From Candidatus Adlerbacteria bacterium (lineage in GTDB: Bacteria > Patescibacteriota > Minisyncoccia > Phycocordibacterales > SBAW01), in NCBI GenBank assembly GCA_903840375.1, contig CAIMFR010000072.1:1-43347 (forward strand): a stretch of DNA of 43,347 nt, given 5' to 3'. The translations under genes were made by a program, and so were the position numbers. Below are positions 4,096-42,281 of the stretch, in pieces; the stretch's first letter is position 1; the number at the start of each line of letters is the position of its first letter. The notes under the pieces are model-generated. The model did not search any database and had not been told where the DNA came from. It saw only the letters and a list, made by a program, of their open reading frames with translations.

Positions 4096-4860
4096 ATGAC
4101 TCTCGACATATTGCTGCGGACATGCAACCGAAGCGAGAACAACCCCACAATGAAGCGCATTGTGACAGTCGATCGTGATGAACTTATCCTGCGCGGATTG
4201 CGGTCACTCATAACATCTATAAATACTGTGCCGGAGGAAATGCGAAGCAGCATCAAGCTCACGATCATCGACGATTCGACTCCCGAGTTTCAGAAAAAAC
4301 TTTTCAAATTGGCGAGTACTTGTCTGTGTAAGAAAAATTTTATCCGTGTTCATCTGGACAATAATGCGTCGATGAAATATTGCTACGAATATGCGATGGG
4401 ACACTTCCACGATGTCATCTATTTTGCAGAAGATGATTACCTGTACTTCCCTTCCTGTATACAGGAGATGGTAGAAGAATATGAAAACTTCACACTCAAT
4501 CTCGGCGGCAACTTCGTGGCGATACACCCGGCGGACTCACCGCTGGAATATTTCCCGAAAGAGATCCGCGAGGCGCGCATCGTGCTCGGTTCACATCGAC
4601 ACTGGCGCACATCGGTCAGCTCTCCCTTCTCGCTCATGCTGCCGAAAAAGGCATTCGTGAAGCACTATCAAAAATTCATGGATTATTCCAAGTTCGACGG
4701 CGTGATCTACCAAGAGGCGAGCACTATCAACCACATGTTCGTCGAAGGCGTTTTTCTTTTTACACCGATCCCGACGCTCGCCTTTCACCTCGGCTACCTA
4801 TACCCGCCGGCGCCACACGCACAGCATGAAGAATTGTGGGAAGAAAATGCGTCGCACTAA
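4096..4860 (+). CDS. GT-A fold (family-2-like) glycosyltransferase; divergent paralog of 40204-40977 and of the middle domain of 34329-36821
   Basis: 254 aa. It shares the LRTC(N/D)R start, IIDDS, YFAEDDYLYFP (DxD-like EDD), HWRT and LFTPIPTLAFH blocks with the two other copies. Confidence 0.6.
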   Translation: MTLDILLRTCNRSENNPTMKRIVTVDRDELILRGLRSLITSINTVPEEMRSSIKLTIIDDSTPEFQKKLFKLASTCLCKKNFIRVHLDNNASMKYCYEYAMGHFHDVIYFAEDDYLYFPSCIQEMVEEYENFTLNLGGNFVAIHPADSPLEYFPKEIREARIVLGSHRHWRTSVSSPFSLMLPKKAFVKHYQKFMDYSKFDGVIYQEASTINHMFVEGVFLFTPIPTLAFHLGYLYPPAPHAQHEELWEENASH

Positions 4861-6773
4861 CGTATCTCGTATCCCTTTTCACGAAGTGCATCAGAAACTT
4901 TTTCCAGTATCTGTTGGACTTCTGTGTCGAGAAGCGTGCGGTCGAATGATTGGAAGATGAGGCGAAATGCAAGCGAGACTTTTCCGTTTTTCTCGAACCG
5001 GTCGAATAGTTCGGAGCGGACAAGCAAGTCTCCAGCATTCTCGCGAATGAGCGACAGAATACTATCTGCATTCGTATCGCCCGACACCCACAAGGCAATG
5101 TCGCGCACGATGTATGGATATTTGGAAAATGATCGATACCGCACGGCGATTGAGACAGGAAGGTCGTCGTAAGAGGAAGGAGTCTCCAGGTGACTGAATA
5201 TTCCAGTCAGATTATATTCCTCAAATGTACCAGGGCCGTTTCTCATGATCAATGACGGTTCAAGTGATGAGACTTTTGGAGAAGACATTATTTCGTTGAG
5301 ACCATTCACAAAATCTTTCAGCGTCGGTTGTTTTTTTACAGGTTCGACCATAAGACCGAGCGAAAGTCTTTCTTCTCCTTTTTGCCAAACAGTGCCCACC
5401 TCAAACAAACGGACCTGCGCCAATCCGAGCAGCTCCTTGTTATGCACGTTCTTATCGAGCGACCCTTTCAATCCGTCCCGCAGATCTTTGCGTAAAAATG
5501 AACGCACGCCATCGACTTTGTTGAGAACGACACGTTCGCCTTCTTCTGCAAAAACAGTGGTGAACACTTCTGAAAATCCTTGTGAGACAAGATATTCGCG
5601 GATGTTTTCGCTCCAGTAAAAAGTATTGTTTACCTCGGGTGTTTTTTCAAACTTCGGCAACAGTCCTGCCGGAATTGCATCGTATCCAATGATGCGCACA
5701 ACTTCCTCTGCCAGATCCTCAGGGATTGCAATGTCGAGACGCTCAAATGGGACTACCACAGAGTAGATCTCATCACTTTTCTCAAATGAAAAACCAAGCC
5801 ACGTGAACACGTCTTCAATTTCCTTTTCGCTGATGTCTATACCGAGCACTTTGCGAATTTGCTGCACGGAAGCTGAGACGGTCATCGACTTCTGCGGCTG
5901 CGGATACACGTCGACAAATCCTTCCAGCTTCCCGCCTGCAAGTTCTACGATTAGATCGGCGACTGCACGCATGCCGTATGCCGCGATCTCCGGAGAAATG
6001 ACTTGCTCGAACCGCGTCGATGCATCAGTGCGAAGTTTCAACGCAGCAGCGGTCTTGCGCACAGACACGCCGCCGAAGTTTGCAGACTCGATGATAATGT
6101 CTGTTGTGTTCTCATCGATGGCCGCCGGCATGCCGCCCTTTATTCCCGCGATGCCAATGGCAACGTCGGCATTTGCGTCTGCGATGACAAGCATAGAATC
6201 CGTGAGCGTGTATTCTTTCTCATCAAGCGCAAGCATCTTTTCTCCCGGCTTCGCTTTACGCACCGCGATATTCCACTTTCCGTTTTCATTCTTTAATTTG
6301 ACGGCGTCGAATGCGTGGAGCGGCTGGCCGATGTTGAACATCACAAAGTTTGTCGCATCTACAATATTGTTGATCGAGCGCTGCCCCATCGACTCTAATC
6401 TTTCTCGCAACCATCTCGGCGACTCACCAACTTTCACGCCGCGCACCACGGCGGCAATGTATCGCTTGCACAACGTATCGTCTATCGAAACAGAAATCAG
6501 ATCTGTCTTTGCATCGAGAACGGGTTTGTCCGAGAATGGATCGTGCGCAATCGGCATTTTCAAAATAGCGGAAACTTCTTTCGCGATCCCGCGATGCGAG
6601 AGACAGTCGTGCCCGCGGTTCGGCGTCACCTTCACATCGAGCACATCGTCGCCGTTTATTTTTTCCACACCGTCTATTTCGAACACATGGAATGTTAGCG
6701 CATCAGAAAGCGTTGCCGCGTCCGGAAGCGGTGTATCAAAAAAAGTTTGCAGCCAATTTCTGGAGATTTTCAT
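4857..6773 (-). CDS. pheT: Phenylalanine--tRNA ligase beta subunit
   Basis: The start is set at ATG 6773 (MKISRNWLQTFFD, the typical PheT N-terminus). The longer ORF to 6902 would run antisense into the sat start. B3/4 and B5 regions are present, and the C-terminus is a ferredoxin-fold anticodon-binding domain (VSLAFRLIFQS...). Its stop codon overlaps the stop of the convergent gene at 4858-4860. Confidence 0.93.
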   Translation of the reverse strand: MKISRNWLQTFFDTPLPDAATLSDALTFHVFEIDGVEKINGDDVLDVKVTPNRGHDCLSHRGIAKEVSAILKMPIAHDPFSDKPVLDAKTDLISVSIDDTLCKRYIAAVVRGVKVGESPRWLRERLESMGQRSINNIVDATNFVMFNIGQPLHAFDAVKLKNENGKWNIAVRKAKPGEKMLALDEKEYTLTDSMLVIADANADVAIGIAGIKGGMPAAIDENTTDIIIESANFGGVSVRKTAAALKLRTDASTRFEQVISPEIAAYGMRAVADLIVELAGGKLEGFVDVYPQPQKSMTVSASVQQIRKVLGIDISEKEIEDVFTWLGFSFEKSDEIYSVVVPFERLDIAIPEDLAEEVVRIIGYDAIPAGLLPKFEKTPEVNNTFYWSENIREYLVSQGFSEVFTTVFAEEGERVVLNKVDGVRSFLRKDLRDGLKGSLDKNVHNKELLGLAQVRLFEVGTVWQKGEERLSLGLMVEPVKKQPTLKDFVNGLNEIMSSPKVSSLEPSLIMRNGPGTFEEYNLTGIFSHLETPSSYDDLPVSIAVRYRSFSKYPYIVRDIALWVSGDTNADSILSLIRENAGDLLVRSELFDRFEKNGKVSLAFRLIFQSFDRTLLDTEVQQILEKVSDALREKGYEIR

Positions 6774-6823
6774 ACCTGAACAGGATAGTACGAGAATACC
6801 ACGTATGCTATACTTTTTCAAAA

Positions 6824-8443
6824 ATGGATAACGCTCGTCTCCACCTAACCGACCGGCAACTCTATGACCTTGAACTCTTGCTGGTTGGAGGCTTTGCGCC
6901 ACTCACGGGGTTTTTAACAGAAGAAGAGTATAACTCTGTTGTCGATGACATGCGACTTCCGTCCGGCAAACTCTGGCCGATGCCTATCGTGCTCGATGTC
7001 GCATCAGCTGCGCAGTATGCGAAAGATCAACGAATTATTTTATGCGACCAGTCGGATAATCCGCTCGCGTATTTCACGATCTCGTCCATCTGTCAGCCGG
7101 ACAAACAGCGCGAAGCTTTCAATGTATATGGCACGACGGACGACACACACCCAGGCGTCCGATATCTCATGCACCACACGGGCTCGGTCTATCTCGGCGG
7201 CAAAATCGAACACATCGCACTTCCGCATCATTATGATTTTGCCGACATACGCCGCACACCGGCAGAACTGCGCGAAATATTTGCAAAGCGCGGGTGGAAT
7301 AAAGTCGCCGCATTCCAAACGAGAAATCCTGTGCACCGAGCGCACTTCACGCTCATGCAGCGCGCGCATCGCGAGAATGATATCAACGTTCTTCTTCATC
7401 CGGTCGTCGGCCCGACAAAAGAGGGCGACATCGACTACGTGACGCGCGTCAAAAGTTACAAACAACTTTACGAAGCTCGCATGAAAGATTTTGCGGAACT
7501 TTCACTGCTGCCGCTTGCAATGCGCATGGCAGGACCGCGCGAAGCGTTGTGGCATGCGCTCATTCGAAAAAATTACGGCTGCACACATTTCATCGTCGGG
7601 CGCGACCATGCCGGACCGGGCAAAGATAAAAATGGCGTTCCTTTTTACGGACCATACGACGCGCAAGAGCTCGCGCTTGCCCACCAAAAAGATCTCGGAA
7701 TAATTATTCTTCCACAACAGGAAATGCTCTATGTTCCGAAAGACGATACGTATCGCTCATGGCAGGAGATTCCCGCCGGAACAGAAACAAAAAACATTTC
7801 CGGCACGGCATTCCGTTCGATGCTTGCCGCCGGAGATCCCGTGCCCGAATGGTTTTCATTTCCGGAAGTCGTAGAGACATTGCGTGAAGGCGTGTCACAG
7901 CGCAGCAGAAAAGGCTGCACAATATTTCTCACTGGTTTGCCGTCCTCCGGCAAGTCCACCATTGCCGCCATTCTTGCAGGAAAACTTCGCGAGCTGCACG
8001 ACCGCAATGTTTCTCTTCTCGACGGCGACGTCGTGCGGCAACACTTGTCGAAAGGTCTCGGATTCTCGCGCGAGGATCGTGTTGAAAATATAAAGCGAAT
8101 CGGTTTTGTAGCATCGGAGATAACGAAACACGGCGGCGTTGCCATATGCTCCGCTATCGCGCCATACGCGGAATCGCGCGACCACAATCGTCAGACGATC
8201 GATCAGCACGGCGCATACATAGAGGTACATGTGGCCACGCCGCTCGCGGTGTGCATCGAGCGCGATGTTAAAGGTCTGTATAAAAAAGCACAAGCGGGGA
8301 TCATAAAACATTTCACCGGCATCGATGACCCGTACGAAGCACCGGAAAATCCGGAGGTGACGATAGACACCACGGACGAAACGCCGCAGCAGTCGGCAGA
8401 GCACATCATAGAACTCCTACGAAAACTCTCGGTAATTAAATAA
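6824..8443 (+). CDS. sat/cysC: Bifunctional sulfate adenylyltransferase / adenylylsulfate kinase (PAPS synthase)
   Basis: The start is ATG 6824 (MDNARLHLTDRQLYDLELL...). ATP sulfurylase motifs are QTRNPVHRAH (7316-7345), HPVVGPTKEGD and VGRDHAGPG. The C-terminal APS kinase part has the P-loop GLPSSGKST (7934-7960), LDGDVVRQ and FSREDRVENIKR. Confidence 0.9.
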   Translation: MDNARLHLTDRQLYDLELLLVGGFAPLTGFLTEEEYNSVVDDMRLPSGKLWPMPIVLDVASAAQYAKDQRIILCDQSDNPLAYFTISSICQPDKQREAFNVYGTTDDTHPGVRYLMHHTGSVYLGGKIEHIALPHHYDFADIRRTPAELREIFAKRGWNKVAAFQTRNPVHRAHFTLMQRAHRENDINVLLHPVVGPTKEGDIDYVTRVKSYKQLYEARMKDFAELSLLPLAMRMAGPREALWHALIRKNYGCTHFIVGRDHAGPGKDKNGVPFYGPYDAQELALAHQKDLGIIILPQQEMLYVPKDDTYRSWQEIPAGTETKNISGTAFRSMLAAGDPVPEWFSFPEVVETLREGVSQRSRKGCTIFLTGLPSSGKSTIAAILAGKLRELHDRNVSLLDGDVVRQHLSKGLGFSREDRVENIKRIGFVASEITKHGGVAICSAIAPYAESRDHNRQTIDQHGAYIEVHVATPLAVCIERDVKGLYKKAQAGIIKHFTGIDDPYEAPENPEVTIDTTDETPQQSAEHIIELLRKLSVIK

Positions 8444-9178
8444 TTAAAACTGGTCGATAAACCGCAGGTCGGCAGAATGCATGAGACGCACGTCGTCGAT
8501 GCCCCACTTCAACATTGCGAGACGGTCGATGCCCCCGCCGAATGCGAAGCCGCGATATTTCTCCGGGTCGATGCCTGCGTTTTTCAAAACGTTCGGATGC
8601 ACCATACCCGCACCCATCACTTCTATCCAACGGTCGCGCAATTTTTCCGGCACATTGTCTCCGGTGAGCCGCATGTCCACCTCGAGCCCCGGCTCGACGA
8701 ATGGGAAGAAACTCGGGCGAAAACGCACTTCGACAGAACCCTTGAAAAGCTGCTCGAAAAGATGTTGCAACGTACTGCGGAGATGCGTGAGCGATATATC
8801 CTCGCCGACAACCATGCCCTCGACTTGATAGAACTCCGCCTCATGCGTCATGTCGGTCGCCTCATTGCGGAAAACCTTTCCCATTGCCACCATGCGATAT
8901 GGCGGATTGATGCCTTTCTTCAGCTGCGATTCAATGTACCGCACCTGCACGTTCGACGTATGTGTTCGCAAAACCATGCCAGGCTCGTCTTTTACGAAAA
9001 AAGTATCTTGCATGTCGCGTGCGGGATGATCTTTCTGAAAGTTAAGAGCGTCGAAGTTGTACCATTCATTTTCCAGAAGAGGACCATCGGCAAAGGTAAA
9101 ACCCATGTCAAAAAAGATCTTATTTGCCTCGCGAATGACCGAGGATATCGGGTGTATGTGTCCGCATGTCTGTGCCAT
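8444..9178 (-). CDS. pheS: Phenylalanine--tRNA ligase alpha subunit, catalytic core only (short form)
   Basis: All class II motifs are present (GHIHPISS, FRNEATDMTHEAEFYQVEG, GFAFGGGIDRLAM). The start is set at ATG 9178, with an alternative at ATG 9217. The GTG-initiated extension to 9367 is antisense to the essential N-terminus of the HAD gene and looks nothing like the PheS helical arm. Confidence 0.88.
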   Translation of the reverse strand: MAQTCGHIHPISSVIREANKIFFDMGFTFADGPLLENEWYNFDALNFQKDHPARDMQDTFFVKDEPGMVLRTHTSNVQVRYIESQLKKGINPPYRMVAMGKVFRNEATDMTHEAEFYQVEGMVVGEDISLTHLRSTLQHLFEQLFKGSVEVRFRPSFFPFVEPGLEVDMRLTGDNVPEKLRDRWIEVMGAGMVHPNVLKNAGIDPEKYRGFAFGGGIDRLAMLKWGIDDVRLMHSADLRFIDQF

Positions 9179-9269
9179 ACATTGGAGTATAGTACAAAGT
9201 TGTGTTCTATGGAACATTGGACAAATGAGTGATATGCTTCTGCTCAGATTAGAAAAATAGGAGGCAACG

Positions 9270-9773: not shown

Positions 9774-9783
9774 AAAAGAAAAA

Positions 9784-9824
9784 GGGCGTCGATACTTTTT
9801 ACGTATTCGACGCCCGTGTTTTTT
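9784..9824. terminator. Bidirectional Rho-independent terminator between the convergent HAD and vWA genes
   Basis: A perfect 9-bp stem, GGGCGTCGA (9784-9792) / TCGACGCCC (9807-9815). It is preceded by AAAAGAAAAA and followed by GTGTTTTTT, so a U-tract is available on both strands. Confidence 0.6.
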
Positions 9825-30344: not shown

Positions 30345-32210
30345 CTACTGTTGTTTGGAATAAAGGATGCGTGCATCGACGTAGTCCGGCTTCAACACAA
30401 GTGCGCGATATGCAAACGCGCGAACATTTCCGACATCTCCAACCGCCTCGGCAAGCTTTGCCTGCAGGAAGAACGGGAACGGGTTGGAAGGTTCTAGCGC
30501 TATGGCATGCGCATATGCATCGCTGCCCTGTTGCGGCGCACCGGCAACCTTAGCAAGCGCCAACTGCGCATACACATTGCCAAGCACTATCCAATTTAGA
30601 ACATTGGCCGGTTCCATATCGACCGCCTTTCGCGCATTTTTTACCGCAGCTTGCGCGTATATGCCAAAGCCTGCCGCAGATTCTTCTTTCGGCATAGAAG
30701 TATCGACGACCAGCTGTGCCATACGCTCCTGTTGAACTTCTGAAAGCGCTCGATAGTACACGGGCTGCGGAAAAATACTGACCGCTTTCGATATCAATGC
30801 CTGGCTGGCATCAACATTTTGATTCTGCATTACCTGTTCAACACCTCCGTTATAGAGCACCACTGAATAAGTGCGAATGATCAAACATACCAATAAGATC
30901 ACGCATACCGATAACACCATGACTCCGGCAAGCCATGGCTTAGTCTTGGAGACGAGAATGAGTCTGCGAAACTTATCTGTATCAATGGTCCATGCCGTGG
31001 CGATACCACTAACGGCGACGATAGCCACCAGACTGATCATGTTCGGCATATACCCTATGAATGCCAACCATCCGTACATGGCGGCAAAAAAACTCACGCA
31101 CAACAAACACCTATCCTCGGTTTCGTCTAAGGTCACGACTCGCCGCCAACCACTCCGGATGGCGAGCACGAGCATTGCCAATGCTGCGACAATCCCTAGG
31201 ATACCGACTGTAACCGCGACCGAATCATACAGACCGACGCCTTGCGTGTAGGTCATATTCCACAGCGGAGTTTTGTTCACGGACACAGGCTTGTAAAGTT
31301 CCCACGCCTGCGCATACGTGTTCGGACCGGTTCCGACAAAAGCCCTAATAGGGCTGGCTCTATATGATGCCGCGACAACCGCAACCGCATCTGAGAATTG
31401 CGGAGATACAGGCATGCCGGCTGACATACGTGGAAATGGAATACTGTTTCCGCAGAAAAAGAGTAGCAACGAAGCGATGCCGACGGCACAAAACAAACCA
31501 GCAGAAGAACGGTGATGCGCGCGGAATCGCTCGATACACATCAGTATTGCGACTATACCTACTGAGCACCAAACAAATGTGACCGGCGCGAATAAAAGAA
31601 AGGTAGCGCACAACAAGGTTGATACAGTGCAGGCAAAACGGCCGATGGGGTTAAGTGAAAAATATTTTGGAAGTGCGAGCGACAGAACTAACGCAAATCC
31701 CGCCATGAATGTTACATCGGACATCGACGATATGCCGGCCGCTTCATGCGCGACAACAGATCGAAGTATGGCTATGAACAAATCCGCAACAACGACCAGT
31801 GTTGTGGTCGCCATCATTGCAAACAAAATCGCTCTGACTCGTAAACCGTTACGCAGCCACACGATGGATAACCAAAAAAGCGCCAAGAGCGCAAGTACTG
31901 ATGCAACTGTTCCAGCTTCCAGATCAAAACCGTCAAATGAAAAACGTCGCGAGATGGAGAAAAGAGTCGAGATCAAGAATATAGCAGCAACGAGCGCCGG
32001 AAATATGACCGGCTTGGCATATACAATACGCAACCCGCCGGCGAACAATGCAACATAACCAACCACAATACCGCACAGTACGAGGAGCACATAGAAATAT
32101 GCAGTACTAAACAAAGAAGAAAATACCGTAAGGAACGGCATGAGGAAAAACGGCATTATTCCAATTGCCAAAGTATAAAAAAGCTTAAGATGATGTTGTC
32201 TTGTAATCAT
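30345..32210 (-). CDS. Polytopic membrane protein, O-antigen ligase/polymerase-like (Wzy_C-type), with C-terminal TPR repeats
   Basis: 621 aa with at least 10 predicted TM segments. A large loop carries FVGTGPNTYAQAW, which resembles the G-x-G-x-G-x-F loop of Wzy_C proteins. The C-terminal ~170 aa has TPR-like repeats (NWIVLGNVYAQLA, AYAHAIALEPSN, AYRALVLKPDY). Confidence 0.55.
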   Translation of the reverse strand: MITRQHHLKLFYTLAIGIMPFFLMPFLTVFSSLFSTAYFYVLLVLCGIVVGYVALFAGGLRIVYAKPVIFPALVAAIFLISTLFSISRRFSFDGFDLEAGTVASVLALLALFWLSIVWLRNGLRVRAILFAMMATTTLVVVADLFIAILRSVVAHEAAGISSMSDVTFMAGFALVLSLALPKYFSLNPIGRFACTVSTLLCATFLLFAPVTFVWCSVGIVAILMCIERFRAHHRSSAGLFCAVGIASLLLFFCGNSIPFPRMSAGMPVSPQFSDAVAVVAASYRASPIRAFVGTGPNTYAQAWELYKPVSVNKTPLWNMTYTQGVGLYDSVAVTVGILGIVAALAMLVLAIRSGWRRVVTLDETEDRCLLCVSFFAAMYGWLAFIGYMPNMISLVAIVAVSGIATAWTIDTDKFRRLILVSKTKPWLAGVMVLSVCVILLVCLIIRTYSVVLYNGGVEQVMQNQNVDASQALISKAVSIFPQPVYYRALSEVQQERMAQLVVDTSMPKEESAAGFGIYAQAAVKNARKAVDMEPANVLNWIVLGNVYAQLALAKVAGAPQQGSDAYAHAIALEPSNPFPFFLQAKLAEAVGDVGNVRAFAYRALVLKPDYVDARILYSKQQ

Positions 32211-32224: not shown

Positions 32225-33475
32225 CTATTGTGCAGCATCGACCGGGGGTGTGCTAGACGAATCTGCAGGGGCGACAGGAGACACGTCGGTCGGCGCAGAT
32301 GGATCTGCGGGAGTGATCGCGTCTGTGGTCGGAGATGTATCTGTGGAAGTAGTAGCGGGAGAACTCGTGTCCGGCGGAGCCGTAGGAACCACAGAATCCG
32401 GCGTCGATGACGATGACGAAATATTGTCTGCCTGAGGAACAATCGGAGTCGTTGCAGGAGTGGAAGTATCAGCCGGGGTCTCGGGCACCGCGACTGTCGG
32501 CAAAACAGGTACGGCGATCGGTATCGTCGACGGGTCAATCGGCGGACCCTTTAGGGGGTCATAAACAATGACCGTGCGTTTAGCAACGGAAGTATTGCCA
32601 GCATGATCGACCGCAGTGTACGTTATGGTGAATTGCCCCGGTTTCGATGTATCAATGGAACCTGTTCCCTGTGTGCTGTAATTTACATCCCGAGTTATGT
32701 TGTCGGTCACAAATGCTCCAAGGTCCATATAGGTTGAACCGACCGGTATCTGTGCCGGATTCTTTCCGAGGATCTGTATCGTCGGTGCGATCGAGTCGCC
32801 GCCTTTGCCTGTTACGGTGGTCGCGACGCCGTCGCCGGCAATACCGCCGGAGGATGGCGATACGCCCGGCGTACCTGATACTCCTGTGGCACTGCCGCCG
32901 TCATCGGGCACTATCGTCGCAGGCTGCGCGACGACCGGAACATAACCCGGCAAGATACTTTCCTTCGAATCAAGGAACTTGCCGACAAGACCTCCGTATA
33001 CGGTCGCGACTACAGCCTGGCTCACACCGCTCTTCCGCTCAATATCCTGCACACGTTGCAGGTACGAGAGCTGCCAGTTCATGACATCCTTAAGCTGCCT
33101 TGTCACATAAAGACCAAGATCCTGCCCTGCAAGGACGTTCTTTGGCACGGTGATGCTATTTAGTTCGGCAACTTGCTGCCAAACATACTCTTTCAGATCA
33201 ATAGTGGTCAACTTATACGCAACGTAATAATTATCGTTATCTTCGGTTACTCCTGTTATTTGTATCTTAGGCGCGTATGTCGATAAGTCGACATTTACTA
33301 TGTATGAATTATCCACAGACTTTATCGTCTGTTGCGTAGACAAAACAGCGTTGGAAACATCAGCACGAACCTCGGGACTCGCGGCTAAAGCGCCGCTGCA
33401 GGACAAAAAAAGCAAAGCAACGCCTATCGAAACGGCGTTATTATATTTTATAAAGTCGAGAAATTTTCCTCCCAT
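32225..33475 (-). CDS. Surface protein with a signal anchor, an Ig-like (DUF5011-type) domain and a Ser/Thr/Pro-rich C-terminal tail
   Basis: 416 aa with an N-terminal hydrophobic segment (AVSIGVALLFLSCSGALA). APTIQILGKNPAQIPVGSTYMDLGAFVTDN...FTITYTAVDHAGNTSVAKRTVIVYD is the classic DUF5011 pattern. The last ~110 aa are low-complexity (DTSTPATTP, DTSSPATTSTDTSPTTD, PADPSAPTDVSPVAPADSSSTPP). Confidence 0.65.
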   Translation of the reverse strand: MGGKFLDFIKYNNAVSIGVALLFLSCSGALAASPEVRADVSNAVLSTQQTIKSVDNSYIVNVDLSTYAPKIQITGVTEDNDNYYVAYKLTTIDLKEYVWQQVAELNSITVPKNVLAGQDLGLYVTRQLKDVMNWQLSYLQRVQDIERKSGVSQAVVATVYGGLVGKFLDSKESILPGYVPVVAQPATIVPDDGGSATGVSGTPGVSPSSGGIAGDGVATTVTGKGGDSIAPTIQILGKNPAQIPVGSTYMDLGAFVTDNITRDVNYSTQGTGSIDTSKPGQFTITYTAVDHAGNTSVAKRTVIVYDPLKGPPIDPSTIPIAVPVLPTVAVPETPADTSTPATTPIVPQADNISSSSSTPDSVVPTAPPDTSSPATTSTDTSPTTDAITPADPSAPTDVSPVAPADSSSTPPVDAAQ

Positions 33476-33507: not shown

Positions 33508-34332
33508 CTATTGCGCGCGTGGCCATGTCGGATGCCAAAATTCCCCGCCCTGATACTGTCTGTACAGATCATCCCCGAGCACCTTTGCCGCATCCTGCGA
33601 TATCTTGCCGAGCACCGGACGGATCTTGTGCATGCCGGGCATGTTATACGCTGACATATCATCTTCCTGCACCGTATTAGTGATGCCGGTAAAATTATGC
33701 GCAAATGTCGGCATATCGAAAAATGAATACACGCGTGCAAGCTCTCGCGCAGGGTCATTCACAAGGTCGTCATACTCCACAAAAAGAATATTCTGTGGAT
33801 AGCGTATAAAGCCGTCGTGCAACACCGACCACGACTGAAAGACATGTCCGTCCTTACTCATCAGCAACCTACAGCGATTGCTATCGTTCAGCGGCTCACC
33901 AAGTGAAATGAGGCTTTGGTCGATAAAAGAGACGGTATCCGGATTCTTCCGAACCAACGCGATGAATGATGCGAGAATGTCTGCGATCGACCGAACCGTG
34001 CACACCAGCTTTGGCATCTCGCCGAGCGCCAGTGTGAGCCTATCCTGATTGACGGGGTTCGGCCACGCGCGGTTTTTATCAAAAATAAAAGGCTTGTCGA
34101 TGTGTGCGTAAAATCCTTCAACAATGCCGCGCAAAACGGACTCTATTTGCCCGGGGACTGCATACGCCTTCACATGTTCTGCTGTGTCCCACATCTCCTT
34201 CGTACCATGCACCAGTCCGACAAGCGGAGACGAAGGTGATGCGTAGATGTCCGGGTTCTGGGAAAGAATAGACGCGAGAACAGTGGAGCCGGTACGCGGC
34301 AAACCTGAAAGAAAGTAAAAATGTTTTTTCAT
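33508..34332 (-). CDS. PAPS-dependent sulfotransferase-family protein
   Basis: The start is ATG 34332 and overlaps the upstream stop (ATGA at 34329-34332). The track start at 34353 is TTG. The 5'-phosphosulfate-binding loop GLPRTGST lies at 34282-34305 in the context YFLSGLPRTGSTVLASIL. A downstream block, VRSIADILAS, resembles the 3'-phosphate-binding motif. Confidence 0.75.
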   Translation of the reverse strand: MKKHFYFLSGLPRTGSTVLASILSQNPDIYASPSSPLVGLVHGTKEMWDTAEHVKAYAVPGQIESVLRGIVEGFYAHIDKPFIFDKNRAWPNPVNQDRLTLALGEMPKLVCTVRSIADILASFIALVRKNPDTVSFIDQSLISLGEPLNDSNRCRLLMSKDGHVFQSWSVLHDGFIRYPQNILFVEYDDLVNDPARELARVYSFFDMPTFAHNFTGITNTVQEDDMSAYNMPGMHKIRPVLGKISQDAAKVLGDDLYRQYQGGEFWHPTWPRAQ

Positions 34333-36821
34333 AAGTGGAATACAGTCTTCCAAAATTGTTCCGGACCATATTTCTCTGAAGCTGCCTTGTGGCCGGCGGA
34401 GGCGATGACCGCGCGCTCGTCTTCATGTGCGAGATAATATCGCACCTTCTCCAATAGATCATCTACTGTGGCGAACGAAACATATTCTTTGCCGTCCACG
34501 AATAGCCGCGACGTTTCCGGATTCGATTGTTCGAGAAGCATCGCACCGCACAACATCGTCTCGAACACGCGGCCTTTGAGCTGATGCGTCTCGTGAGATG
34601 AGCGAGAAAAATTGAGCACGATCTTGGACCGGCACAAGACATCGACATATCGCTCGATCGACACGCGTGTGTCCGGTGTATTTCCGCCCAGTATCTCGAC
34701 AGGGACACCTGCATTGCGAAGCGCGTCCAACATGACGCGACGGTCTCGATGTGCACCCTCTATCGTTCCCGCAAAAGATACACCGATGTTGCGAACACTT
34801 CCGACATCACGGAAAAGGCGCGTGTCACACGGAAACCACAAGCTATGGATGCGCGAAGCGACCGACTCGTCATAGCCGTTGATCGCGCTGCAGTGTGCAC
34901 GATATTCGCCGTCATTTCTATCCTGCAACACAACATGCGCACCGGCGGACAGCACACTATCAATAGACGGAAACCACATCGGATCTGTATCGGAAAATTG
35001 CGCAACCACCGGAATTCCAAGCGTCTGAATGATAGATGCGATGACCATGCGTTCCTGCTCGCGCAATCCGTGGTATGCGTAAAGCGCAATAAAATTAGGC
35101 CGTGTCTGCGCACAATAATCAAAAAGCCCCGCAATACCGCCGCGATACTTGTGTACGGTCGCAAGACCGGTCGATTCCAGAGAACCCCATGCGTAATGCT
35201 CGATCACATATTCCTCCGGTACTACACTCACAAAAAGTACGGACGGCCGTGACGTATTCGCCTGCCTCACTACATGCGGTTCTGCATTTGCATCCCACAA
35301 TGCTTGCCAATCTTCATACTGTGGAGGCGTGTCTTGCATGTGGAATGCCAGTGACGGGATCGGAGTAAAGAGTATCACACCTCCTTGTGTCCATATGCGA
35401 TTGATCGTCGTTTCCTCCGTCACGGTCGGGTCAATACCATAACGAGTTAGCGCATCGAAATTGCTGCGAAATTTTCTGAAAGTCGTAGCGTGGACGAGTA
35501 ATGTTCCGGTCGTATGAACATTGGTGCGCCATGGACGTTTTACGCCTGGCACTATTCTGCACTGGTCCATACGCACATAATTGTTCGGATCGTCACAAGG
35601 AGCTACTCCTACTTCAAGTTCGCCCAACTTTGCTCTAAATGCAAAATATGATGATAACATGCCGAAAATTGCTTCCGGATAATGCAGATAATCATCCTCT
35701 ACAAAATAGATAAGATTTTTACACCGATCAGCTTTGCGATATGCCGCCGCAAGCGATGCGCCGTTTCCGGTACTCTCCAAGGCTTCGATCTCTACAGGAT
35801 GCTTTAGTGCCTCTGTTATCTCTCGCATTTTGGAAAGCAGCTCCGGCGACGAATGATCGTCGATGATGTGCAGGGCCAGCGGTTCGGTGCAACGATTCAT
35901 ACTCGCAACGAGTGAACTTATACAGCGCGTGGTAATTTCTCGTTTCGATACAGTAACGAACCTCTTTCCGGCATGCACTGAATGCACTCTATCGCATGTG
36001 CGCAAAATAATATCTAGAACCACCGGCGGCTGCGGTGTCTGCCACCATGCGGGACTTTCTTCGACATCAGAGTAGAGCGGCGGCGGTACTTCGCCGTACT
36101 TCGCATACCATGCAACATCGAATTCTAATGCTTGCTTTTCATCATTCCACCGATACGAACTGGAGCCCATGCGCACATTCTGATATTGTGCTTTCTTTTT
36201 TCCGGAACTGTTCAGCCACGTAAGATGTTTTATGTAAGCTACATCTTCAGGAATATCTAGATGGTTAGAACTTCTTGTCGTGTGCCCGTCGAGATATTGC
36301 AATTCATTGTCCCAACTGAATTTTTCTATCCCGCCATATCGATCGGTCCAAAAAATGCGCGGCGGTCGAAAGCCCTTGATCCAATGCTTGCCGTCGAAAA
36401 TATAATTCTTGAAATGTATCCGGTAGAGATCCGGTAGAGGATTCGCCAATACAAAGTCAATTATTTTTTTTATAGAATCGACTGTATAAAACTCGTCGCC
36501 GTCGAGGATCCAAATGCAATCTACACCTGCCGCCAGTAGTGCTTGCAGGACAGCCGTCCGCGCTTCCTGCTCCTGCATCGGAACATCTGACGCCTTATAC
36601 CAATCAAAAACATCTTTATTCTCCGCGAGGCTATTCCTCGTCTCATCGTCGTCATTTTTATAGCCAAGCGTTGCATACTCGGCAAACTGGCAATTCATCG
36701 CGGCAATATACACCTCGTGTCCCAACTCCGGCGCGATCTTCTTAAACTCGCGCCACGGTGCCAATACATCCGGCAAAGTCTCCGCGCAACCATAGAATAA
36801 CCCTACGATGCCTATCTTCAT
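34329..36821 (-). CDS. Three-domain glycosyltransferase: N-terminal GT-A (DGD), central GT-A paralog module (EDD), C-terminal CgeB/Glyco_trans_1_2-like domain
   Basis: 830 aa. Residues 1-255 carry CIWILDGDEFY. Residues ~266-512 (35286-36026) are collinear with the whole protein encoded at 40204-40977. The C-terminal ~300 aa end in the pattern LNFSRSSH...KGRVFETMLCGAMLLEQ...VSFATVDDLLEKVRYYLAHEDER...AGHKAASEKY, typical of CgeB-like GT domains. Confidence 0.7.
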   Translation of the reverse strand: MKIGIVGLFYGCAETLPDVLAPWREFKKIAPELGHEVYIAAMNCQFAEYATLGYKNDDDETRNSLAENKDVFDWYKASDVPMQEQEARTAVLQALLAAGVDCIWILDGDEFYTVDSIKKIIDFVLANPLPDLYRIHFKNYIFDGKHWIKGFRPPRIFWTDRYGGIEKFSWDNELQYLDGHTTRSSNHLDIPEDVAYIKHLTWLNSSGKKKAQYQNVRMGSSSYRWNDEKQALEFDVAWYAKYGEVPPPLYSDVEESPAWWQTPQPPVVLDIILRTCDRVHSVHAGKRFVTVSKREITTRCISSLVASMNRCTEPLALHIIDDHSSPELLSKMREITEALKHPVEIEALESTGNGASLAAAYRKADRCKNLIYFVEDDYLHYPEAIFGMLSSYFAFRAKLGELEVGVAPCDDPNNYVRMDQCRIVPGVKRPWRTNVHTTGTLLVHATTFRKFRSNFDALTRYGIDPTVTEETTINRIWTQGGVILFTPIPSLAFHMQDTPPQYEDWQALWDANAEPHVVRQANTSRPSVLFVSVVPEEYVIEHYAWGSLESTGLATVHKYRGGIAGLFDYCAQTRPNFIALYAYHGLREQERMVIASIIQTLGIPVVAQFSDTDPMWFPSIDSVLSAGAHVVLQDRNDGEYRAHCSAINGYDESVASRIHSLWFPCDTRLFRDVGSVRNIGVSFAGTIEGAHRDRRVMLDALRNAGVPVEILGGNTPDTRVSIERYVDVLCRSKIVLNFSRSSHETHQLKGRVFETMLCGAMLLEQSNPETSRLFVDGKEYVSFATVDDLLEKVRYYLAHEDERAVIASAGHKAASEKYGPEQFWKTVFHL

Positions 36822-36849
36822 GTTCGCCAGTATACCGCATCGCGGCTAA

Positions 36850-37707
36850 TTATAGATATTTTTCAGTAAAATAGTTCGTCCACTCAGGAATTCTGTCGTA
36901 CTGGTGGACGATGGCAAAGGGTTTACCGTCTGCATTACGCACGGTAGAACCGTCGAATGTGGGCCGTGATTCCAACAGGTATGGCTCGTAGGTATCGCAC
37001 ATATCTGGCTGCGATGTGACCTGTGCATTAAGTACCCAGGCATCGGCCAATGTCTGGTGCAACGTGACCGACCACCACGGCTCGATCGACATCAAGATAA
37101 TATAGGCCGCCTGATCTGCGCCGAAATAGGGAACTCGCACACACATCTCGAAGACCATAAGACACATATCACGCACGTAGTCCGCATATCCGGCTATCAC
37201 ACCGCCGCATTGCACCTCCTTATGTTTAACGATGTTGTAAAAATAATCGCCGAAATTTTTGCGTACTTCATTCGCATTCCACTCTTCATGCTCGACAAGG
37301 ATACGCTCGCCTGCCGCAACCAATTTTTTACCTGACGGAATAAGATTCTTTTCCAACCATGGAATCGGGTTTTGTTGGAACACCAGATCGCTCACGTCAG
37401 CGAACACGACGAACCGGTATTTCCCTTCCTGCTTTTGCAAAAAATCGAACACATGCAGAAAACGCTCGATCACCTTCGGCGAGTTCGGCCCGGTGCGCAT
37501 AGGAACGACCATGACGCCCTCGCCGCGTATCTGTTCCAGCAGAGCTGTTTCGGCATCAAGCGCTATCAGACAAATGTCGCCGGTGAATCCCGTCTGCTTG
37601 ATAGACCGTATCCACGGTTTGAGCACCGGCAGGTCGTAGCCGAAAAACACACCTATCACAAGATCTTTTTTATCAGAAGGTGAGTGTGGTGGCATGGATG
37701 TTAGCAT
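36850..37707 (-). CDS. Hypothetical protein, possibly a GT-A nucleotide-diphospho-sugar transferase
   Basis: The start is uncertain (ATG 37707 preferred; ATG 37695 and GTG 37734 are possible). YRFVVFADVSDLVFQQNP is a DxD-like block after a Rossmann-like N-terminus, and there is a later GADQAAYI block. The family assignment is tentative. Confidence 0.4.
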   Translation of the reverse strand: MLTSMPPHSPSDKKDLVIGVFFGYDLPVLKPWIRSIKQTGFTGDICLIALDAETALLEQIRGEGVMVVPMRTGPNSPKVIERFLHVFDFLQKQEGKYRFVVFADVSDLVFQQNPIPWLEKNLIPSGKKLVAAGERILVEHEEWNANEVRKNFGDYFYNIVKHKEVQCGGVIAGYADYVRDMCLMVFEMCVRVPYFGADQAAYIILMSIEPWWSVTLHQTLADAWVLNAQVTSQPDMCDTYEPYLLESRPTFDGSTVRNADGKPFAIVHQYDRIPEWTNYFTEKYL

Positions 37708-37720
37708 ATATAGTAGTGTC

Positions 37721-39016: not shown

Positions 39017-39021
39017 AATTA

Positions 39022-40200: not shown

Positions 40201-40203
40201 AAA

Positions 40204-40977
40204 TTATTTATACATCTTCCACAATGGCTTCCAATCTTCATAGACTGGCGGCGTATCTTCCATGTGGAATGCAAGTGCAGGTATCGGAGTGAACAAAGTC
40301 ACGCCACGCTTCCATATTTGATTGATCGTAGACGCCTCCGTCACTGACGGATCGATTCCATAACGGCTCAAGGCGTCAAATGTGCTTCTAAATGTTGCAA
40401 GCGTCTTTGGCGTTATGAGCACCGTTGCGGTTGTCTTCGTGTGAGTTCTCCATGGGCGCCCCTGTCCTGGCACAATGCGACATACATCGGCGCCTTCATA
40501 GTAGTTCCACGGGCTGTCGTATGGCGCGATAGCTACTTCAGCGCTGCCAAGTTTAGCTGAAAAAAATCGATACGCGGCAAGCATTTCCGGCAATGCTCCC
40601 GGATAGTGCAGATAATCATCTTCTACAAAATAGATCAGATTTTTATACTGATCGGCCATGCGATACGATTCCGCAAGTGATGCAGGATTACCAGTTTCTC
40701 GCAGTGGCACGATCTCAGCCGGATGAAATGAACGTGCAATGCTGTCGCGAATAAGCGCCAGAGTCTCAGCCGATGAATGATCATCGAGAATGCGGAGTAC
40801 AAGCGACTCGGGACACAGGTTCATACTCGCTATCAACGAACGGAGACAGCGCGCGATCAATTCCCTCTTTGGCACTTTTATAAACCGCTCGCGGTTGTGT
40901 ACGGAGGAGTGGTCGCAAGTACGGAGGATTATATTGAGAGCGGGCGGCACCACCTGTTCTGAACTCGCTTTATCCAT
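40204..40977 (-). CDS. GT-A fold (family-2-like) glycosyltransferase, paralog module
   Basis: 257 aa with the blocks ILRTCDHSS, ILDDHSS, KNLIYFVEDDYLHYP, CRIVPGQGRPWRT and LFTPIPALAFHMEDTPPVYEDW. By eye, over half the residues are identical to residues 266-512 of the 830-aa protein. Confidence 0.65.
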   Translation of the reverse strand: MDKASSEQVVPPALNIILRTCDHSSVHNRERFIKVPKRELIARCLRSLIASMNLCPESLVLRILDDHSSAETLALIRDSIARSFHPAEIVPLRETGNPASLAESYRMADQYKNLIYFVEDDYLHYPGALPEMLAAYRFFSAKLGSAEVAIAPYDSPWNYYEGADVCRIVPGQGRPWRTHTKTTATVLITPKTLATFRSTFDALSRYGIDPSVTEASTINQIWKRGVTLFTPIPALAFHMEDTPPVYEDWKPLWKMYK

Positions 40978-42255: not shown

Positions 42256-42281
42256 CACCAAGCATTGTACCTAAATAATAT

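What the first reader, a model, noticed from the sequence alone, without database searches (positions are those of the whole stretch)
6824..8443. Stand-alone PAPS synthase (ATP sulfurylase fused to APS kinase) with no sulfate-reduction genes, inserted between pheS and pheT
Seen: one ORF carries intact ATP sulfurylase motifs (QTRNPVHRAH, VGRDHAGPG). It also has an APS kinase half with an intact P-loop (GLPSSGKST) and LDGD. It runs opposite to pheT and pheS on either side. Its stop (8441-8443) abuts the pheS stop (8444-8446). Its start is only 50 nt from the pheT start. Established knowledge: the sulfurylase-N/kinase-C fusion order is known from fungi, where the kinase-like half is regulatory, and from a few bacteria such as Aquifex, where it is catalytic. 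PAPS serves either as the substrate of CysH or as the sulfuryl donor for sulfotransferases. Inference: the window has no cysH, cysIJ or cysDN but does have a sulfotransferase 26 kb away. The enzyme therefore most likely exists to make the sulfuryl donor rather than to assimilate sulfur. Its position inside the normally contiguous pheST pair suggests an acquired accessory gene.
Basis: partly seen in the sequence, partly recalled or inferred. Interest (0 to 1): 0.65.

Follow-up and report, generated by a model that had tools for sequence, protein, structure and literature searches.

The report
PAPS synthase splitting pheS-pheT in CPR bacterium
An ordinary, intact two-in-one enzyme that makes the activated sulfate donor PAPS sits between the two phenylalanyl-tRNA synthetase genes of a tiny candidate-phyla-radiation (CPR) bacterium, most likely to feed sulfotransferases that decorate its surface sugars, not to make cysteine.

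Summary
ORF 6824-8443 (+) encodes a 539-aa PUA-like / ATP sulfurylase / APS kinase fusion. It scores above the curated cut-off of NCBIfam NF004040 and aligns end to end with the catalytically bifunctional Aquifex enzyme (2GKS). All sulfurylase and kinase motifs are intact. It lies antiparallel between pheS and pheT, with abutting stop codons and a 50-nt gap between the two start codons.

The host is a Paceibacteria-type CPR bacterium. Three syntenic relatives have GT2-pheS-pheT-gyrB contiguous with no sat gene, so the insertion is real and lineage-specific. The gene is not foreign, though. Its composition matches the window, and it falls in a 100%-bootstrap clade whose named members are all Paceibacteria or Kaiserbacteria.

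In 8 independent loci of that clade the gene sits in surface-glycan clusters:
- a sulfotransferase within two genes in 6 of 8;
- a CysQ-like PAP phosphatase adjacent in 3 of 8;
- PAPS reductase in 0 of 8.

Next to the closest homolog lies one protein that fuses homologs of two window genes: the sulfotransferase (33508-34353) and the TPR-glycosyltransferase (40993-42261). This is a new member of a known kind, of modest interest. Absence of sulfate reduction across the whole genome could not be tested.

The parts
6824..8443 (+). sat-cysC: bifunctional sulfate adenylyltransferase / adenylylsulfate kinase (PAPS synthase), 539 aa
   Evidence: Pfam finds PUA_2, ATP-sulfurylase and APS_kinase. NCBIfam NF004040 equivalog scores 773.9 bits against a cut-off of 669. 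The protein aligns end to end with Aquifex 2GKS, E 1.7e-168.
6836..7216 (+). PUA-like N-terminal domain (residues 5-131)
   Evidence: PF14306, E 3.9e-39.
7244..7888 (+). ATP sulfurylase catalytic domain (residues 141-355) with QTRNPVHRAH, HPVVGPTK and VGRDHAGPG
   Evidence: PF01747, E 5.2e-83. The motifs are conserved across 104 family members.
7910..8368 (+). APS kinase domain (residues 363-515) with P-loop GLPSSGKST, LDGD, GLGFSREDR and KGLYKKA
   Evidence: PF01583, E 2.6e-60. Motifs compared with Aquifex and the fungal enzyme and across the family.
6774..6823 (.). 50-nt divergent gap between the pheT and sat start codons. It holds a promoter-like site for pheT on the minus strand (TTGAAA-17-TATTCT with TG, 6821..6793). 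It also holds a TGcTATACT extended -10-like sequence (6806-6814) 9 nt before the sat ATG.
   Evidence: Sequence read; promoter scan. These are consensus matches only, and their number in the region does not exceed chance.
4857..6773 (-). pheT (638 aa), separated from pheS by the insertion
   Evidence: B3_4, B5 and FDX-ACB domains. The nearest homologs are Patescibacteria/Paceibacteria at 62% identity or less.
8444..9178 (-). pheS (244 aa from the ATG at 9178). Its stop codon abuts the sat stop codon.
   Evidence: tRNA-synt_2d, E 8.4e-91. Alignment with three relatives supports the start at MAQTCGHIHPISS. The public gene call of 220 aa removes conserved residues.
33508..34353 (-). PAPS-dependent sulfotransferase, the probable consumer of the PAPS
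   Evidence: PF13469 and PF00685. The 5'-PSB motif GLPRTGST and the 3'-PB residues R114...S122 are conserved. It is 36.5% identical to the N-terminal half of the fusion protein that lies directly upstream of the closest sat-cysC homolog.
40993..42261 (-). TPR protein with a C-terminal, probably glycosyltransferase-like domain; first gene of the glycan cluster
   Evidence: Residues 122-408 are 41% identical (E 1.5e-62) to the C-terminal half of the same L004 fusion protein. It is 62% identical to the gene directly upstream of the sulfotransferase in L098. The glycosyltransferase assignment rests on a faint GT9 hit only.
34329..40977 (-). Glycan-biosynthesis genes between the TPR protein and the sulfotransferase: an 830-aa glycosyltransferase, a 294-aa unknown, an FAD/amine-oxidase-like protein, DUF3431 and a GT2
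   Evidence: Pfam.
32225..33475 (-). Surface protein with an Ig-like domain, an N-terminal signal/anchor and a C-terminal Pro/Thr/Ser-rich tail; candidate carrier of the sulfated glycan
   Evidence: PF16403. Sequence read. Its position directly after the sulfotransferase is conserved in L097, L098 and L099.
30345..32210 (-). Polytopic membrane protein with a C-terminal TPR region. It is distantly related to the Wzy_C+TPR proteins that follow sat-cysC in other Paceibacteria.
   Evidence: hhalign probability 92.5%, E 5e-7. Its position is conserved in L097 and L098. Pfam itself finds no Wzy_C domain.

Best explanation
The gene encodes a catalytically bifunctional, Aquifex-type PAPS synthase.

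How it works (inferred from the well-studied family):
- The N-terminal PUA-like and catalytic domains make APS and PPi from ATP and sulfate.
- The fused C-terminal P-loop kinase immediately phosphorylates APS to PAPS. This pulls the unfavourable first step forward.

In this Paceibacteria-type CPR bacterium the PAPS is used as a sulfuryl donor, not as a substrate for reduction to sulfide. The likely consumer is the cytoplasmic sulfotransferase at 33508-34353. That gene belongs to a surface-glycan / glycoprotein module:
- a TPR-glycosyltransferase and further glycosyltransferases;
- the sulfotransferase;
- an Ig-like surface protein with a Pro/Thr/Ser-rich tail;
- an O-antigen-ligase-like membrane protein.

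In other Paceibacteria the same enzyme is encoded inside such clusters, often followed by a CysQ-like PAP phosphatase. In this lineage it was relocated, or re-inserted from a related CPR genome, into the pheS-pheT junction on the opposite strand. pheT then depends on a promoter of its own in the 50-nt gap.

What is shown: the domain architecture, the motif integrity, the gene order, the synteny break, the clade membership and the neighbourhood statistics.
What is inferred: the enzyme activities, the identity of the sulfated acceptor, the absence of sulfate reduction elsewhere in the genome, and the promoter function.
For: Enzyme identity:
- Domains and curated family membership.
- End-to-end alignment to Aquifex 2GKS. 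The P-loop and LDGD are intact, whereas the fungal regulatory domain has lost them. The literature agrees that the Aquifex kinase domain is active and the fungal one regulatory (PMC3779200).
- All catalytic motifs are conserved in 68 members of the CPR clade and in 36 other members.

Gene neighbourhoods of the same clade:
- L004/L005: a sulfotransferase-TPR-GT fusion overlaps the sat-cysC start by 4 nt.
- L006: sulfotransferase, sat-cysC, Inositol_P, Wzy_C-TPR.
- L007: sulfotransferase, then sat-cysC.
- L008: a divergent sulfotransferase two genes upstream, with Inositol_P and Wzy_C-TPR downstream.
- L009: sulfotransferase, NeuB, sat-cysC.
- L095: sat-cysC, then sulfotransferase.
- L012/L013: glycan genes, sat-cysC, (CysQ), Wzy_C-TPR.
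- None of these has a PAPS reductase.

Links to window genes:
- The L004 fusion protein matches the window sulfotransferase (E 1.5e-51) and the window TPR protein (E 1.5e-62).
- The window sulfotransferase keeps its PAPS-binding motifs.

Insertion and origin:
- Relatives L010, L011 and L096 have pheS and pheT 2-9 nt apart within otherwise the same gene order.
- The gene's composition equals the window mean.
- It lies in a 100%-bootstrap clade with only Paceibacteria/Kaiserbacteria names.

Background: Parcubacteria generally lack amino-acid biosynthesis (PMC4508563).
Against: - Only 43 kb of the genome is visible. cysH, sir and cysK elsewhere cannot be excluded.
- No PAP phosphatase and no sulfate transporter is seen in the window.
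- In the window the sulfotransferase is 25 kb away, so co-regulation is not evident.
- Every member of this family has Ala in place of the Ser of the APS-kinase 'ISP' motif: IAPY here, VSPY in Aquifex. From my own recollection this Ser is not essential, but I did not verify that.
- In other phyla the same family sometimes sits next to PAPS reductase (2 of 145 immediate neighbours) and next to sulfate or anion transporters. The family as such is therefore not restricted to sulfation.
- No paper that I could search addresses sulfation in CPR bacteria.
Confidence: 0.75

Rival explanations
1. Assimilatory role: PAPS is reduced by a CysH-type PAPS reductase encoded elsewhere in the genome, and the sulfur ends up in cysteine.
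For: This is the default role of Sat and CysC in bacteria. Two of 145 immediate neighbours of non-CPR family members are PAPS reductases, and several are sulfate or anion transporters. The rest of this genome is unseen.
Against: No reductase appears in the window or in any of the 8 CPR-clade loci examined with up to 10 kb on each side where the contig allowed. Those loci carry sulfotransferases, CysQ and glycan genes instead. Parcubacteria lack amino-acid biosynthesis in general (PMC4508563).
Confidence: 0.1
2. Only one half is catalytic. Either the kinase half is an allosteric or structural domain, as in filamentous fungi and yeast, or the sulfurylase half is inactive, as in Thiobacillus denitrificans and Entamoeba APS kinase.
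For: Both kinds of degenerate fusion exist (PMC3779200, PMC13213808). The family-wide IAPY in place of ISPY resembles the fungal regulatory domain, which reads APIAPY.
Against: The P-loop GLPSSGKST, LDGD, GLGFSREDR and KGLYKKA are intact, as are QTRNPVHRAH and VGRDHAGPG. All are conserved across 104 members. The protein passes the NF004040 equivalog cut-off. A sulfotransferase in the same genome needs PAPS, not APS.
Confidence: 0.07
3. The PAPS feeds protein tyrosine sulfation (RaxST-like) or a small-molecule or lipid sulfation, rather than glycan sulfation.
For: PF13469 and PF00685 sulfotransferases include enzymes that act on proteins and on small molecules. The sulfotransferase is always followed by an Ig-like surface protein, which could itself be the acceptor.
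Against: The sulfotransferase is fused to, or adjacent to, a TPR-glycosyltransferase-like protein. In all 8 clade loci the context is sugar-nucleotide and glycosyltransferase genes.
Confidence: 0.15
4. The pheS-sat-pheT order is ancestral and the relatives lost sat, rather than sat having been inserted.
For: Only three relatives were examined, at 57-62% PheT identity.
Against: All three share the wider gene order with the window and have pheS and pheT 2-9 nt apart. pheST adjacency is the general bacterial state (own knowledge). None of the 8 sat-cysC loci of the clade lies next to pheS or pheT. The window also carries two further lineage-specific insertions, one on either side (Ter cluster plus HAD, and a 254-aa GT-A-like gene), in the same stretch.
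Confidence: 0.05

Closest known systems
Aquifex aeolicus bifunctional ATP sulfurylase / APS kinase (PDB 2GKS; NCBIfam NF004040)
   Same: It has the same domain order (PUA-like, sulfurylase, C-terminal kinase). The alignment runs end to end at E 1.7e-168. All catalytic motifs of both halves are intact.
   Different: Aquifex is an autotroph in which the enzyme is discussed in an assimilatory or chemolithotrophic setting. Here the host is a reduced CPR bacterium and the context points to sulfation. The Ser of the ISP motif (VSPY in Aquifex) is Ala here (IAPY).
Fungal ATP sulfurylase with a C-terminal APS-kinase-like allosteric domain (Penicillium chrysogenum 1I2D; yeast Met3)
   Same: Same fusion order and high similarity, E 5.5e-163.
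   Different: The fungal domain has lost the P-loop (GYMNSGKDAI) and the first Asp of DGD (LLGD), and it binds PAPS as an inhibitor (PMC3779200). The window protein retains both.
Dedicated PAPS supply for sulfotransferases: rhizobial NodPQ-NodH, Xanthomonas RaxPQ-RaxST, mycobacterial CysDNC-Stf0 (own knowledge)
   Same: A sulfate-activating enzyme is kept to feed a PAPS-dependent sulfotransferase that modifies a surface or secreted molecule. In CPR relatives the genes are clustered.
   Different: Those systems use the heterodimeric, GTPase-coupled CysD/CysN-type sulfurylase. This one is the homo-oligomeric Sat type fused to CysC. In the window the two genes are 25 kb apart.
Entamoeba histolytica sulfate-activation pathway
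   Same: A metabolically reduced, host-dependent organism keeps sulfate activation to supply PAPS for sulfated surface or lipid molecules (PMC13213808). That it lacks reductive sulfate assimilation is from my own knowledge.
   Different: It is eukaryotic and located in mitosomes. It uses separate enzymes, and its APS kinase carries an inactive sulfurylase-like domain. The products are sulfolipids.
Thiobacillus denitrificans two-domain APS kinase (PDB 3CR8)
   Same: Same two-domain layout; matched at E 1.4e-111 over residues 123-529.
   Different: Its sulfurylase-like domain is inactive (PMC13213808). The window protein keeps QTRNPVHRAH and GRDHAG.

Membership tests
NF004040 bifunctional sulfate adenylyltransferase/adenylylsulfate kinase (Aquifex type) | Whole-protein score above the curated equivalog cut-off | tested here: met
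   773.9 bits against a cut-off of 669; residues 6-535 match profile positions 36-567 of 572.
NF004040 bifunctional sulfate adenylyltransferase/adenylylsulfate kinase (Aquifex type) | Domain order: PUA-like, then ATP sulfurylase, then C-terminal APS kinase | tested here: met
   PF14306 at 5-131, PF01747 at 141-355, PF01583 at 363-515.
NF004040 bifunctional sulfate adenylyltransferase/adenylylsulfate kinase (Aquifex type) | Intact sulfurylase motifs (QTRNPxHRxH, HPxxG, GRDHAG) | tested here: met
   QTRNPVHRAH, HPVVGPTK and VGRDHAGPG are present and align with 2GKS and 1I2D.
NF004040 bifunctional sulfate adenylyltransferase/adenylylsulfate kinase (Aquifex type) | Intact kinase motifs (P-loop GxxxxGKS/T, LDGD, GFSxxDR, KGLYKKA) | tested here: met
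   GLPSSGKST, LDGD, GLGFSREDR and KGLYKKA are present. The Ser of the ISP motif is Ala in every member of the family examined here, whereas Aquifex 2GKS has Ser.
NF004040 bifunctional sulfate adenylyltransferase/adenylylsulfate kinase (Aquifex type) | Both APS and PAPS are formed by the protein | not testable with these tools
   This needs an enzyme assay.
Fungal-type ATP sulfurylase with a regulatory kinase-like domain | Degenerate P-loop and DGD in the C-terminal domain | tested here: not met
   The window reads GLPSSGKST / LDGD; P. chrysogenum reads GYMNSGKDAI / LLGD.
T. denitrificans / Entamoeba-type APS kinase with an inactive sulfurylase-like domain | Loss of the sulfurylase catalytic motifs | tested here: not met
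   The motifs are intact. 3CR8 aligns only from residue 123.
Assimilatory sulfate reduction pathway | PAPS/APS reductase and sulfite reductase in the same genome | tested here: inconclusive
   Absent from the 43-kb window and from the flanks (up to 10 kb each side, where the contig allowed) of 8 CPR-clade loci. The rest of the genome is not available.
Dedicated sulfation system (PAPS synthase plus sulfotransferase) | A PAPS-dependent sulfotransferase with intact PAPS-binding motifs in the same genome | tested here: met
   The gene at 33508-34353 matches PF13469 and PF00685. The 5'-PSB motif GLPRTGST and the 3'-PB residues R114/S122 are conserved.
Dedicated sulfation system (PAPS synthase plus sulfotransferase) | Genomic linkage of the synthase and the sulfotransferase | tested here: inconclusive
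   Not linked in the window (25 kb apart). Linked within two genes in 6 of 8 clade loci.
Dedicated sulfation system (PAPS synthase plus sulfotransferase) | A PAP-recycling phosphatase (CysQ or equivalent) | tested here: not met
   No CysQ-like ORF in the window at E<1e-4. It is present directly downstream in L006, L008 and L012 and in 24 of the 95 sources scanned (94 loci plus the window). It may be encoded elsewhere in this genome.

The most novel reading that the evidence does not exclude
Many Paceibacteria-type CPR bacteria cannot make their own amino acids. They nevertheless spend ATP on a dedicated PAPS synthase in order to sulfate a surface glycan. That glycan would be attached to a mucin-like, Pro/Thr/Ser-rich Ig-domain surface protein by an O-antigen-ligase-like / TPR enzyme. 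The result would be a sulfated, strongly anionic glycoprotein coat, a bacterial counterpart of sulfated mucins or proteoglycans, that could mediate attachment to host cells. The conserved module of TPR-GT, sulfotransferase, Ig-like protein and Wzy_C-like-TPR protein, together with the recurring order sulfotransferase, sat-cysC, cysQ, Wzy_C-TPR, would be its genetic signature.
Probability: 0.3. Interest if true: 0.55.

Novelty: new member of a known kind. Interest (0 to 1): 0.3.

Why it matters
The enzyme itself is textbook. The context gives it modest value. It shows that a clade of ultra-small, biosynthetically poor CPR bacteria retains sulfate activation, and that this is consistently wired to sulfotransferases and surface-glycan genes. 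That points to sulfated cell-surface structures in these organisms. I found no paper on the topic in the searchable literature. Such structures could bear on how these episymbionts recognise or stick to hosts.

For annotation it is a caution. 'sat/cysC' in CPR metagenome-assembled genomes should not be counted as sulfur-assimilation or sulfur-cycling capacity.

The pheS/pheT split is a clean, datable synteny break. It is useful as a lineage marker and as a small natural experiment in operon disruption.

Tried and rejected
- The metagenome-contig scan with the single protein returned only 3 loci, two of them duplicates and of unknown lineage, so it added little.
It returned mostly non-CPR phyla and only 2 Paceibacteria, so CPR contexts had to come from the 12 encoding-contig look-ups.
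- My first greedy ORF caller dropped real genes that were overlapped by longer spurious ORFs. I replaced it with an all-ORF search.
- A search for direct or inverted repeats flanking the insertion found only short chance matches. There is no target-site duplication and no mobile-element signature.
- Rfam and tRNA scans found nothing near the locus, so there is no T-box or leader upstream of pheS.
- Terminator-like hairpins around the convergent pheS/sat junction do not exceed the shuffle expectation (10 found against 7.5 +/- 3.0), so I make no claim about them.
- Recent horizontal acquisition from another phylum was considered and rejected on composition and on the tree.
- The HAD phosphatase at 9270-9773 was considered as a substitute PAP phosphatase. 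I rejected this as unsupported: it is YqeG/HAD-IIIA-like and lies at the edge of the inserted Ter cluster.
- Literature searches for sulfotransferase, PAPS or sulfation in CPR/Patescibacteria returned nothing relevant.
- A whole-genome test for cysH was not possible with the tools available.
Full report
**Observation**

ORF 6692..8443 on the plus strand has its most plausible start at the ATG at 6824. That gives a 539-aa protein, the same call made in the public assemblies that carry this contig. Pfam finds three domains:
- PUA_2, residues 5-131, E 3.9e-39;
- ATP-sulfurylase, residues 141-355, E 5.2e-83;
- APS_kinase, residues 363-515, E 2.6e-60.

The junctions were read base by base:
- The sat stop codon TAA is at 8441-8443.
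- The pheS stop codon is at 8444-8446 on the other strand, so the two stops abut.
- The pheT start codon is at 6771-6773. This leaves exactly 50 nt (6774-6823) before the sat ATG.

pheS (8444-9178) and pheT (4857-6773) are both on the minus strand in the canonical pheS-then-pheT order. A sulfotransferase lies at 33508-34353. No PAPS reductase, sulfite reductase or CysD/CysN domain occurs in any ORF of 150 aa or more in the window.

**What the protein is**

It passes the curated NCBIfam equivalog NF004040, 'bifunctional sulfate adenylyltransferase/adenylylsulfate kinase', at 773.9 bits against a cut-off of 669. Its best solved relative is the Aquifex aeolicus bifunctional enzyme 2GKS, aligned from residue 6 to residue 539 at E 1.7e-168.

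In that alignment every sulfurylase motif is present: QTRNPVHRAH, HPVVGPTK and VGRDHAGPG. So is every kinase motif: GLPSSGKST, LDGD, GLGFSREDR and KGLYKKA. The Penicillium regulatory domain, by contrast, reads GYMNSGKDAI and LLGD. The literature states that the fused kinase is active in Aquifex and regulatory in filamentous fungi (PMC3779200). It also states that the opposite degeneration, an inactive sulfurylase-like domain, occurs in Thiobacillus denitrificans and Entamoeba (PMC13213808). Neither kind of degeneration applies here.

Across 104 family members the motifs are essentially invariant. One caveat remains. The Ser of the kinase 'ISP' motif is Ala (IAPY) in every member of this family, CPR or not, whereas Aquifex has VSPY.

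**Host lineage**

The window has several signatures of a CPR genome:
- a split transketolase;
- a GAPDH-RpiB-RPE-transketolase cluster;
- a short EF-Ts;
- a short PheS and PheT;
- a sortase;
- many glycosyltransferases.

The PheT search agrees. The best named hits are Patescibacteria, Adlerbacteria, Kaiserbacteria and Paceibacterota, with the nearest relative at 62% identity.

**Is it an insertion?**

The closest PheT relative (L010) and two further close ones (L011, L096) share the window's wider gene order: L25, SLT, RF, S2, EF-Ts, two small ORFs, GT2, pheS, pheT, gyrB. In all three, pheS and pheT are 2-9 nt apart with nothing between them.

Against that backbone the window carries three extra blocks:
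- a Ter cluster plus a HAD gene (9270-14683), between GT2 and pheS;
- sat-cysC, between pheS and pheT;
- a 254-aa GT-A-like gene (4096-4860), between pheT and gyrB.

The split of pheST is therefore a derived, lineage-specific state. No repeats or mobile-element traces flank the gene.

The disrupted operon needs a new promoter for pheT. The only promoter-like match in the 50-nt gap is on the correct strand: TTGAAA-17-TATTCT with an upstream TG, at 6821..6793. This is a consensus match only. The sequence TGcTATACT lies 9 nt upstream of the sat ATG, which would suggest a leaderless or nearly leaderless mRNA. That is an inference.

**Is it foreign?**

No. Three composition measures sit at the window mean:

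| Measure | sat-cysC | Mean over 37 window genes |
|---|---|---|
| GC | 0.526 | 0.511 +/- 0.026 |
| GC3 | 0.557 | 0.560 +/- 0.058 |
| Codon-usage distance | 0.099 | 0.105 +/- 0.026 |

The family is widespread and slowly evolving. It is 50-58% identical to members from Proteobacteria, Acidobacteriota, Rhodothermales, Planctomycetota and others.

In a neighbour-joining tree of 104 sequences the window protein falls in a clade of 68 with 100/100 bootstrap support. That clade contains all 66 database hits I sampled (the top 60 plus six further ones) and both GTDB Paceibacteria. It excludes all 36 non-CPR sequences. Five of its six named members are Paceibacteria, Pacebacteria or Kaiserbacteria; the sixth (P0023) is named only 'bacterium'. 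Branching inside the clade is unresolved. The gene therefore belongs to the Paceibacteria gene pool. Relocation within the genome and transfer between CPR genomes cannot be told apart.

**What it is for**

I obtained gene neighbourhoods for 8 independent loci of this clade:

| Locus | Neighbourhood |
|---|---|
| L004/L005 (closest homolog, 62%) | a 605-aa sulfotransferase-TPR-C-terminal-domain fusion overlaps the sat-cysC start by 4 nt |
| L006 | sulfotransferase, sat-cysC, Inositol_P (CysQ-like), Wzy_C-TPR |
| L007 | sulfotransferase, sat-cysC, methyltransferase, PMT_2, FAD protein |
| L008 | divergent sulfotransferase two genes upstream; Inositol_P and Wzy_C-TPR downstream |
| L009 | sulfotransferase, NeuB, sat-cysC |
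| L095 | NeuB / CMP-sugar genes, sat-cysC, sulfotransferase |
| L012 | GDP-mannose dehydratase etc., sat-cysC, Inositol_P, Wzy_C-TPR |
| L013 | UDP-GlcNAc 2-epimerase, CMP-sugar synthetase, sat-cysC, Wzy_C-TPR |

The tally over these 8 loci:
- sulfotransferase within two genes: 6 of 8;
- CysQ-like gene adjacent: 3 of 8;
- Wzy_C-TPR downstream: 4 of 8;
- glycan cluster: 8 of 8;
- PAPS or sulfite reductase: 0 of 8;
- pheS/pheT flank: 0 of 8.

Immediate neighbours of non-CPR members are heterogeneous by comparison. Among 145 of them are TauE (7), Inositol_P (6), SLC13/CitMHS-type transporters, Polysacc_synt (4) and PAPS_reduct (2).

The strongest single link is the L004 fusion protein. Its N-terminal half matches the window sulfotransferase (36.5% identity, E 1.5e-51). 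Its C-terminal half matches residues 122-408 of the window TPR protein at 40993-42261 (41% identity, E 1.5e-62). Two window genes at the ends of the glycan cluster are thus fused in a relative and placed directly against the closest sat-cysC homolog.

The window sulfotransferase keeps the PAPS-binding 5'-PSB loop (GLPRTGST) and the 3'-PB residues R114 and S122. Parcubacteria in general lack amino-acid biosynthesis (PMC4508563).

They do not prove that reduction genes are absent from the unseen part of the genome.

**The probable acceptor system**

The closest homologs of the window sulfotransferase (72% and 68% identity) lie in a conserved module, which the window shares:
- a TPR protein, 62% identical to the window gene at 40993-42261;
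- the sulfotransferase;
- a surface protein with an Ig-like domain, 53% identical;
- a polytopic membrane protein with a C-terminal TPR region, 30-44% identical.

In the window, extra glycosyltransferase genes (34329-40977) sit between the first two members.

The Ig-like protein (32225-33475) has an N-terminal signal or anchor sequence and a long Pro/Thr/Ser-rich C-terminal tail. This is the kind of sequence that is often O-glycosylated (own knowledge).

The membrane protein (30345-32210) is distantly related to the Wzy_C-TPR proteins that follow sat-cysC in other Paceibacteria (hhalign probability 92.5%, E 5e-7). Pfam does not detect Wzy_C in it.

A coherent but inferred model follows. A glycan is built and sulfated in the cytoplasm with PAPS from Sat-CysC. 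It is then transferred by the ligase-like enzyme to the surface protein.

**Comparison with what is known, and verdict**

The protein is a regular member of the Aquifex-type bifunctional PAPS synthase family. The use of a dedicated PAPS supply for sulfotransferases is known from NodPQ/NodH, RaxPQ/RaxST and mycobacterial CysDNC/Stf0 (own knowledge). Retention of sulfate activation for making sulfolipids is known from Entamoeba (PMC13213808); that Entamoeba has no reductive assimilation is from my own knowledge.

What is particular here is the host (a reduced CPR bacterium), the consistent embedding of this clade in glycan clusters, and the clean disruption of pheST. I found no paper that discusses sulfation in CPR bacteria.

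I rate it a new member of a known kind, with interest 0.3. The most novel reading still open is a sulfated, mucin-like surface glycoprotein coat in Paceibacteria (probability about 0.3).

Noticed in passing
window 9270-14683: A tellurite-resistance-type stress cluster lies between GT2 and pheS. It comprises TerC/DUF475, a 363-aa coiled-coil protein, TerD, a weakly TelA-like protein, vWA-TerF and a YqeG-like HAD phosphatase. It is absent from the three syntenic relatives L010, L011 and L096, so it is a second lineage-specific insertion next to the finding. A Ter system seems unusual in so reduced a genome.
   Followed up: partly
window 4096-4860 (+): A 254-aa ORF between pheT and gyrB is also absent from the syntenic relatives. 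It has only a weak GT2 (GT-A fold) match (E 0.014) and a DxD-like EDDY motif. This is a third insertion in the same stretch and possibly another glycan gene.
   Followed up: partly
window 8444-9178 (-): PheS in this lineage is only about 244-257 aa and lacks the usual N-terminal domain. The public gene call of 220 aa (start at 9106) cuts off the conserved GHIHPISSxIREAN segment. Alignment with relatives supports the ATG at 9178. PheT (638 aa) also shows no N-terminal tRNA-binding domain in Pfam.
   Followed up: partly
window 6806-6814 and 9186-9191 (minus strand): Both sat and pheS have a TATACT hexamer only 7-9 nt upstream of their ATG and no Shine-Dalgarno sequence. This suggests leaderless or nearly leaderless mRNAs in this organism.
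   Followed up: no
window 30345-34353 (-); L097 and L098: The gene trio of sulfotransferase, Ig-like surface protein with a Pro/Thr/Ser-rich tail, and polytopic membrane protein with C-terminal TPR is conserved. It sits directly upstream of the GAPDH-RpiB-RPE-transketolase cluster in both the window and L097.
   Followed up: yes
window 39022-40200 (-): A DUF3431 protein (PF11913, E 2.9e-16) sits inside the bacterial glycan cluster. Its ORF overlaps the neighbouring FAD/amine-oxidase-like ORF (37721-39127) by about 100 nt, so one of the two start codons is probably miscalled.
   Followed up: no
window 22046-23314 (-) and 22934-23929 (+): The class II fructose-bisphosphate aldolase ORF has a 137-aa N-terminal extension with no domain match, and this extension overlaps the divergent PfkB ORF. 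The real aldolase start is probably near 22900.
   Followed up: no
loci L006, L008, L012 and L013: The order sat-cysC, (CysQ-like Inositol_P), roughly 780-aa Wzy_C + TPR membrane protein recurs in Paceibacteria. A CysQ-like gene lies close downstream of sat-cysC in most of the 24 of 95 scanned sources (94 loci plus the window), spread over several phyla, that have one within 10 kb.
   Followed up: partly
window 16712-16785 (-): A single tRNA-Thr (TGT) is the only RNA gene detected in the window.
   Followed up: yes
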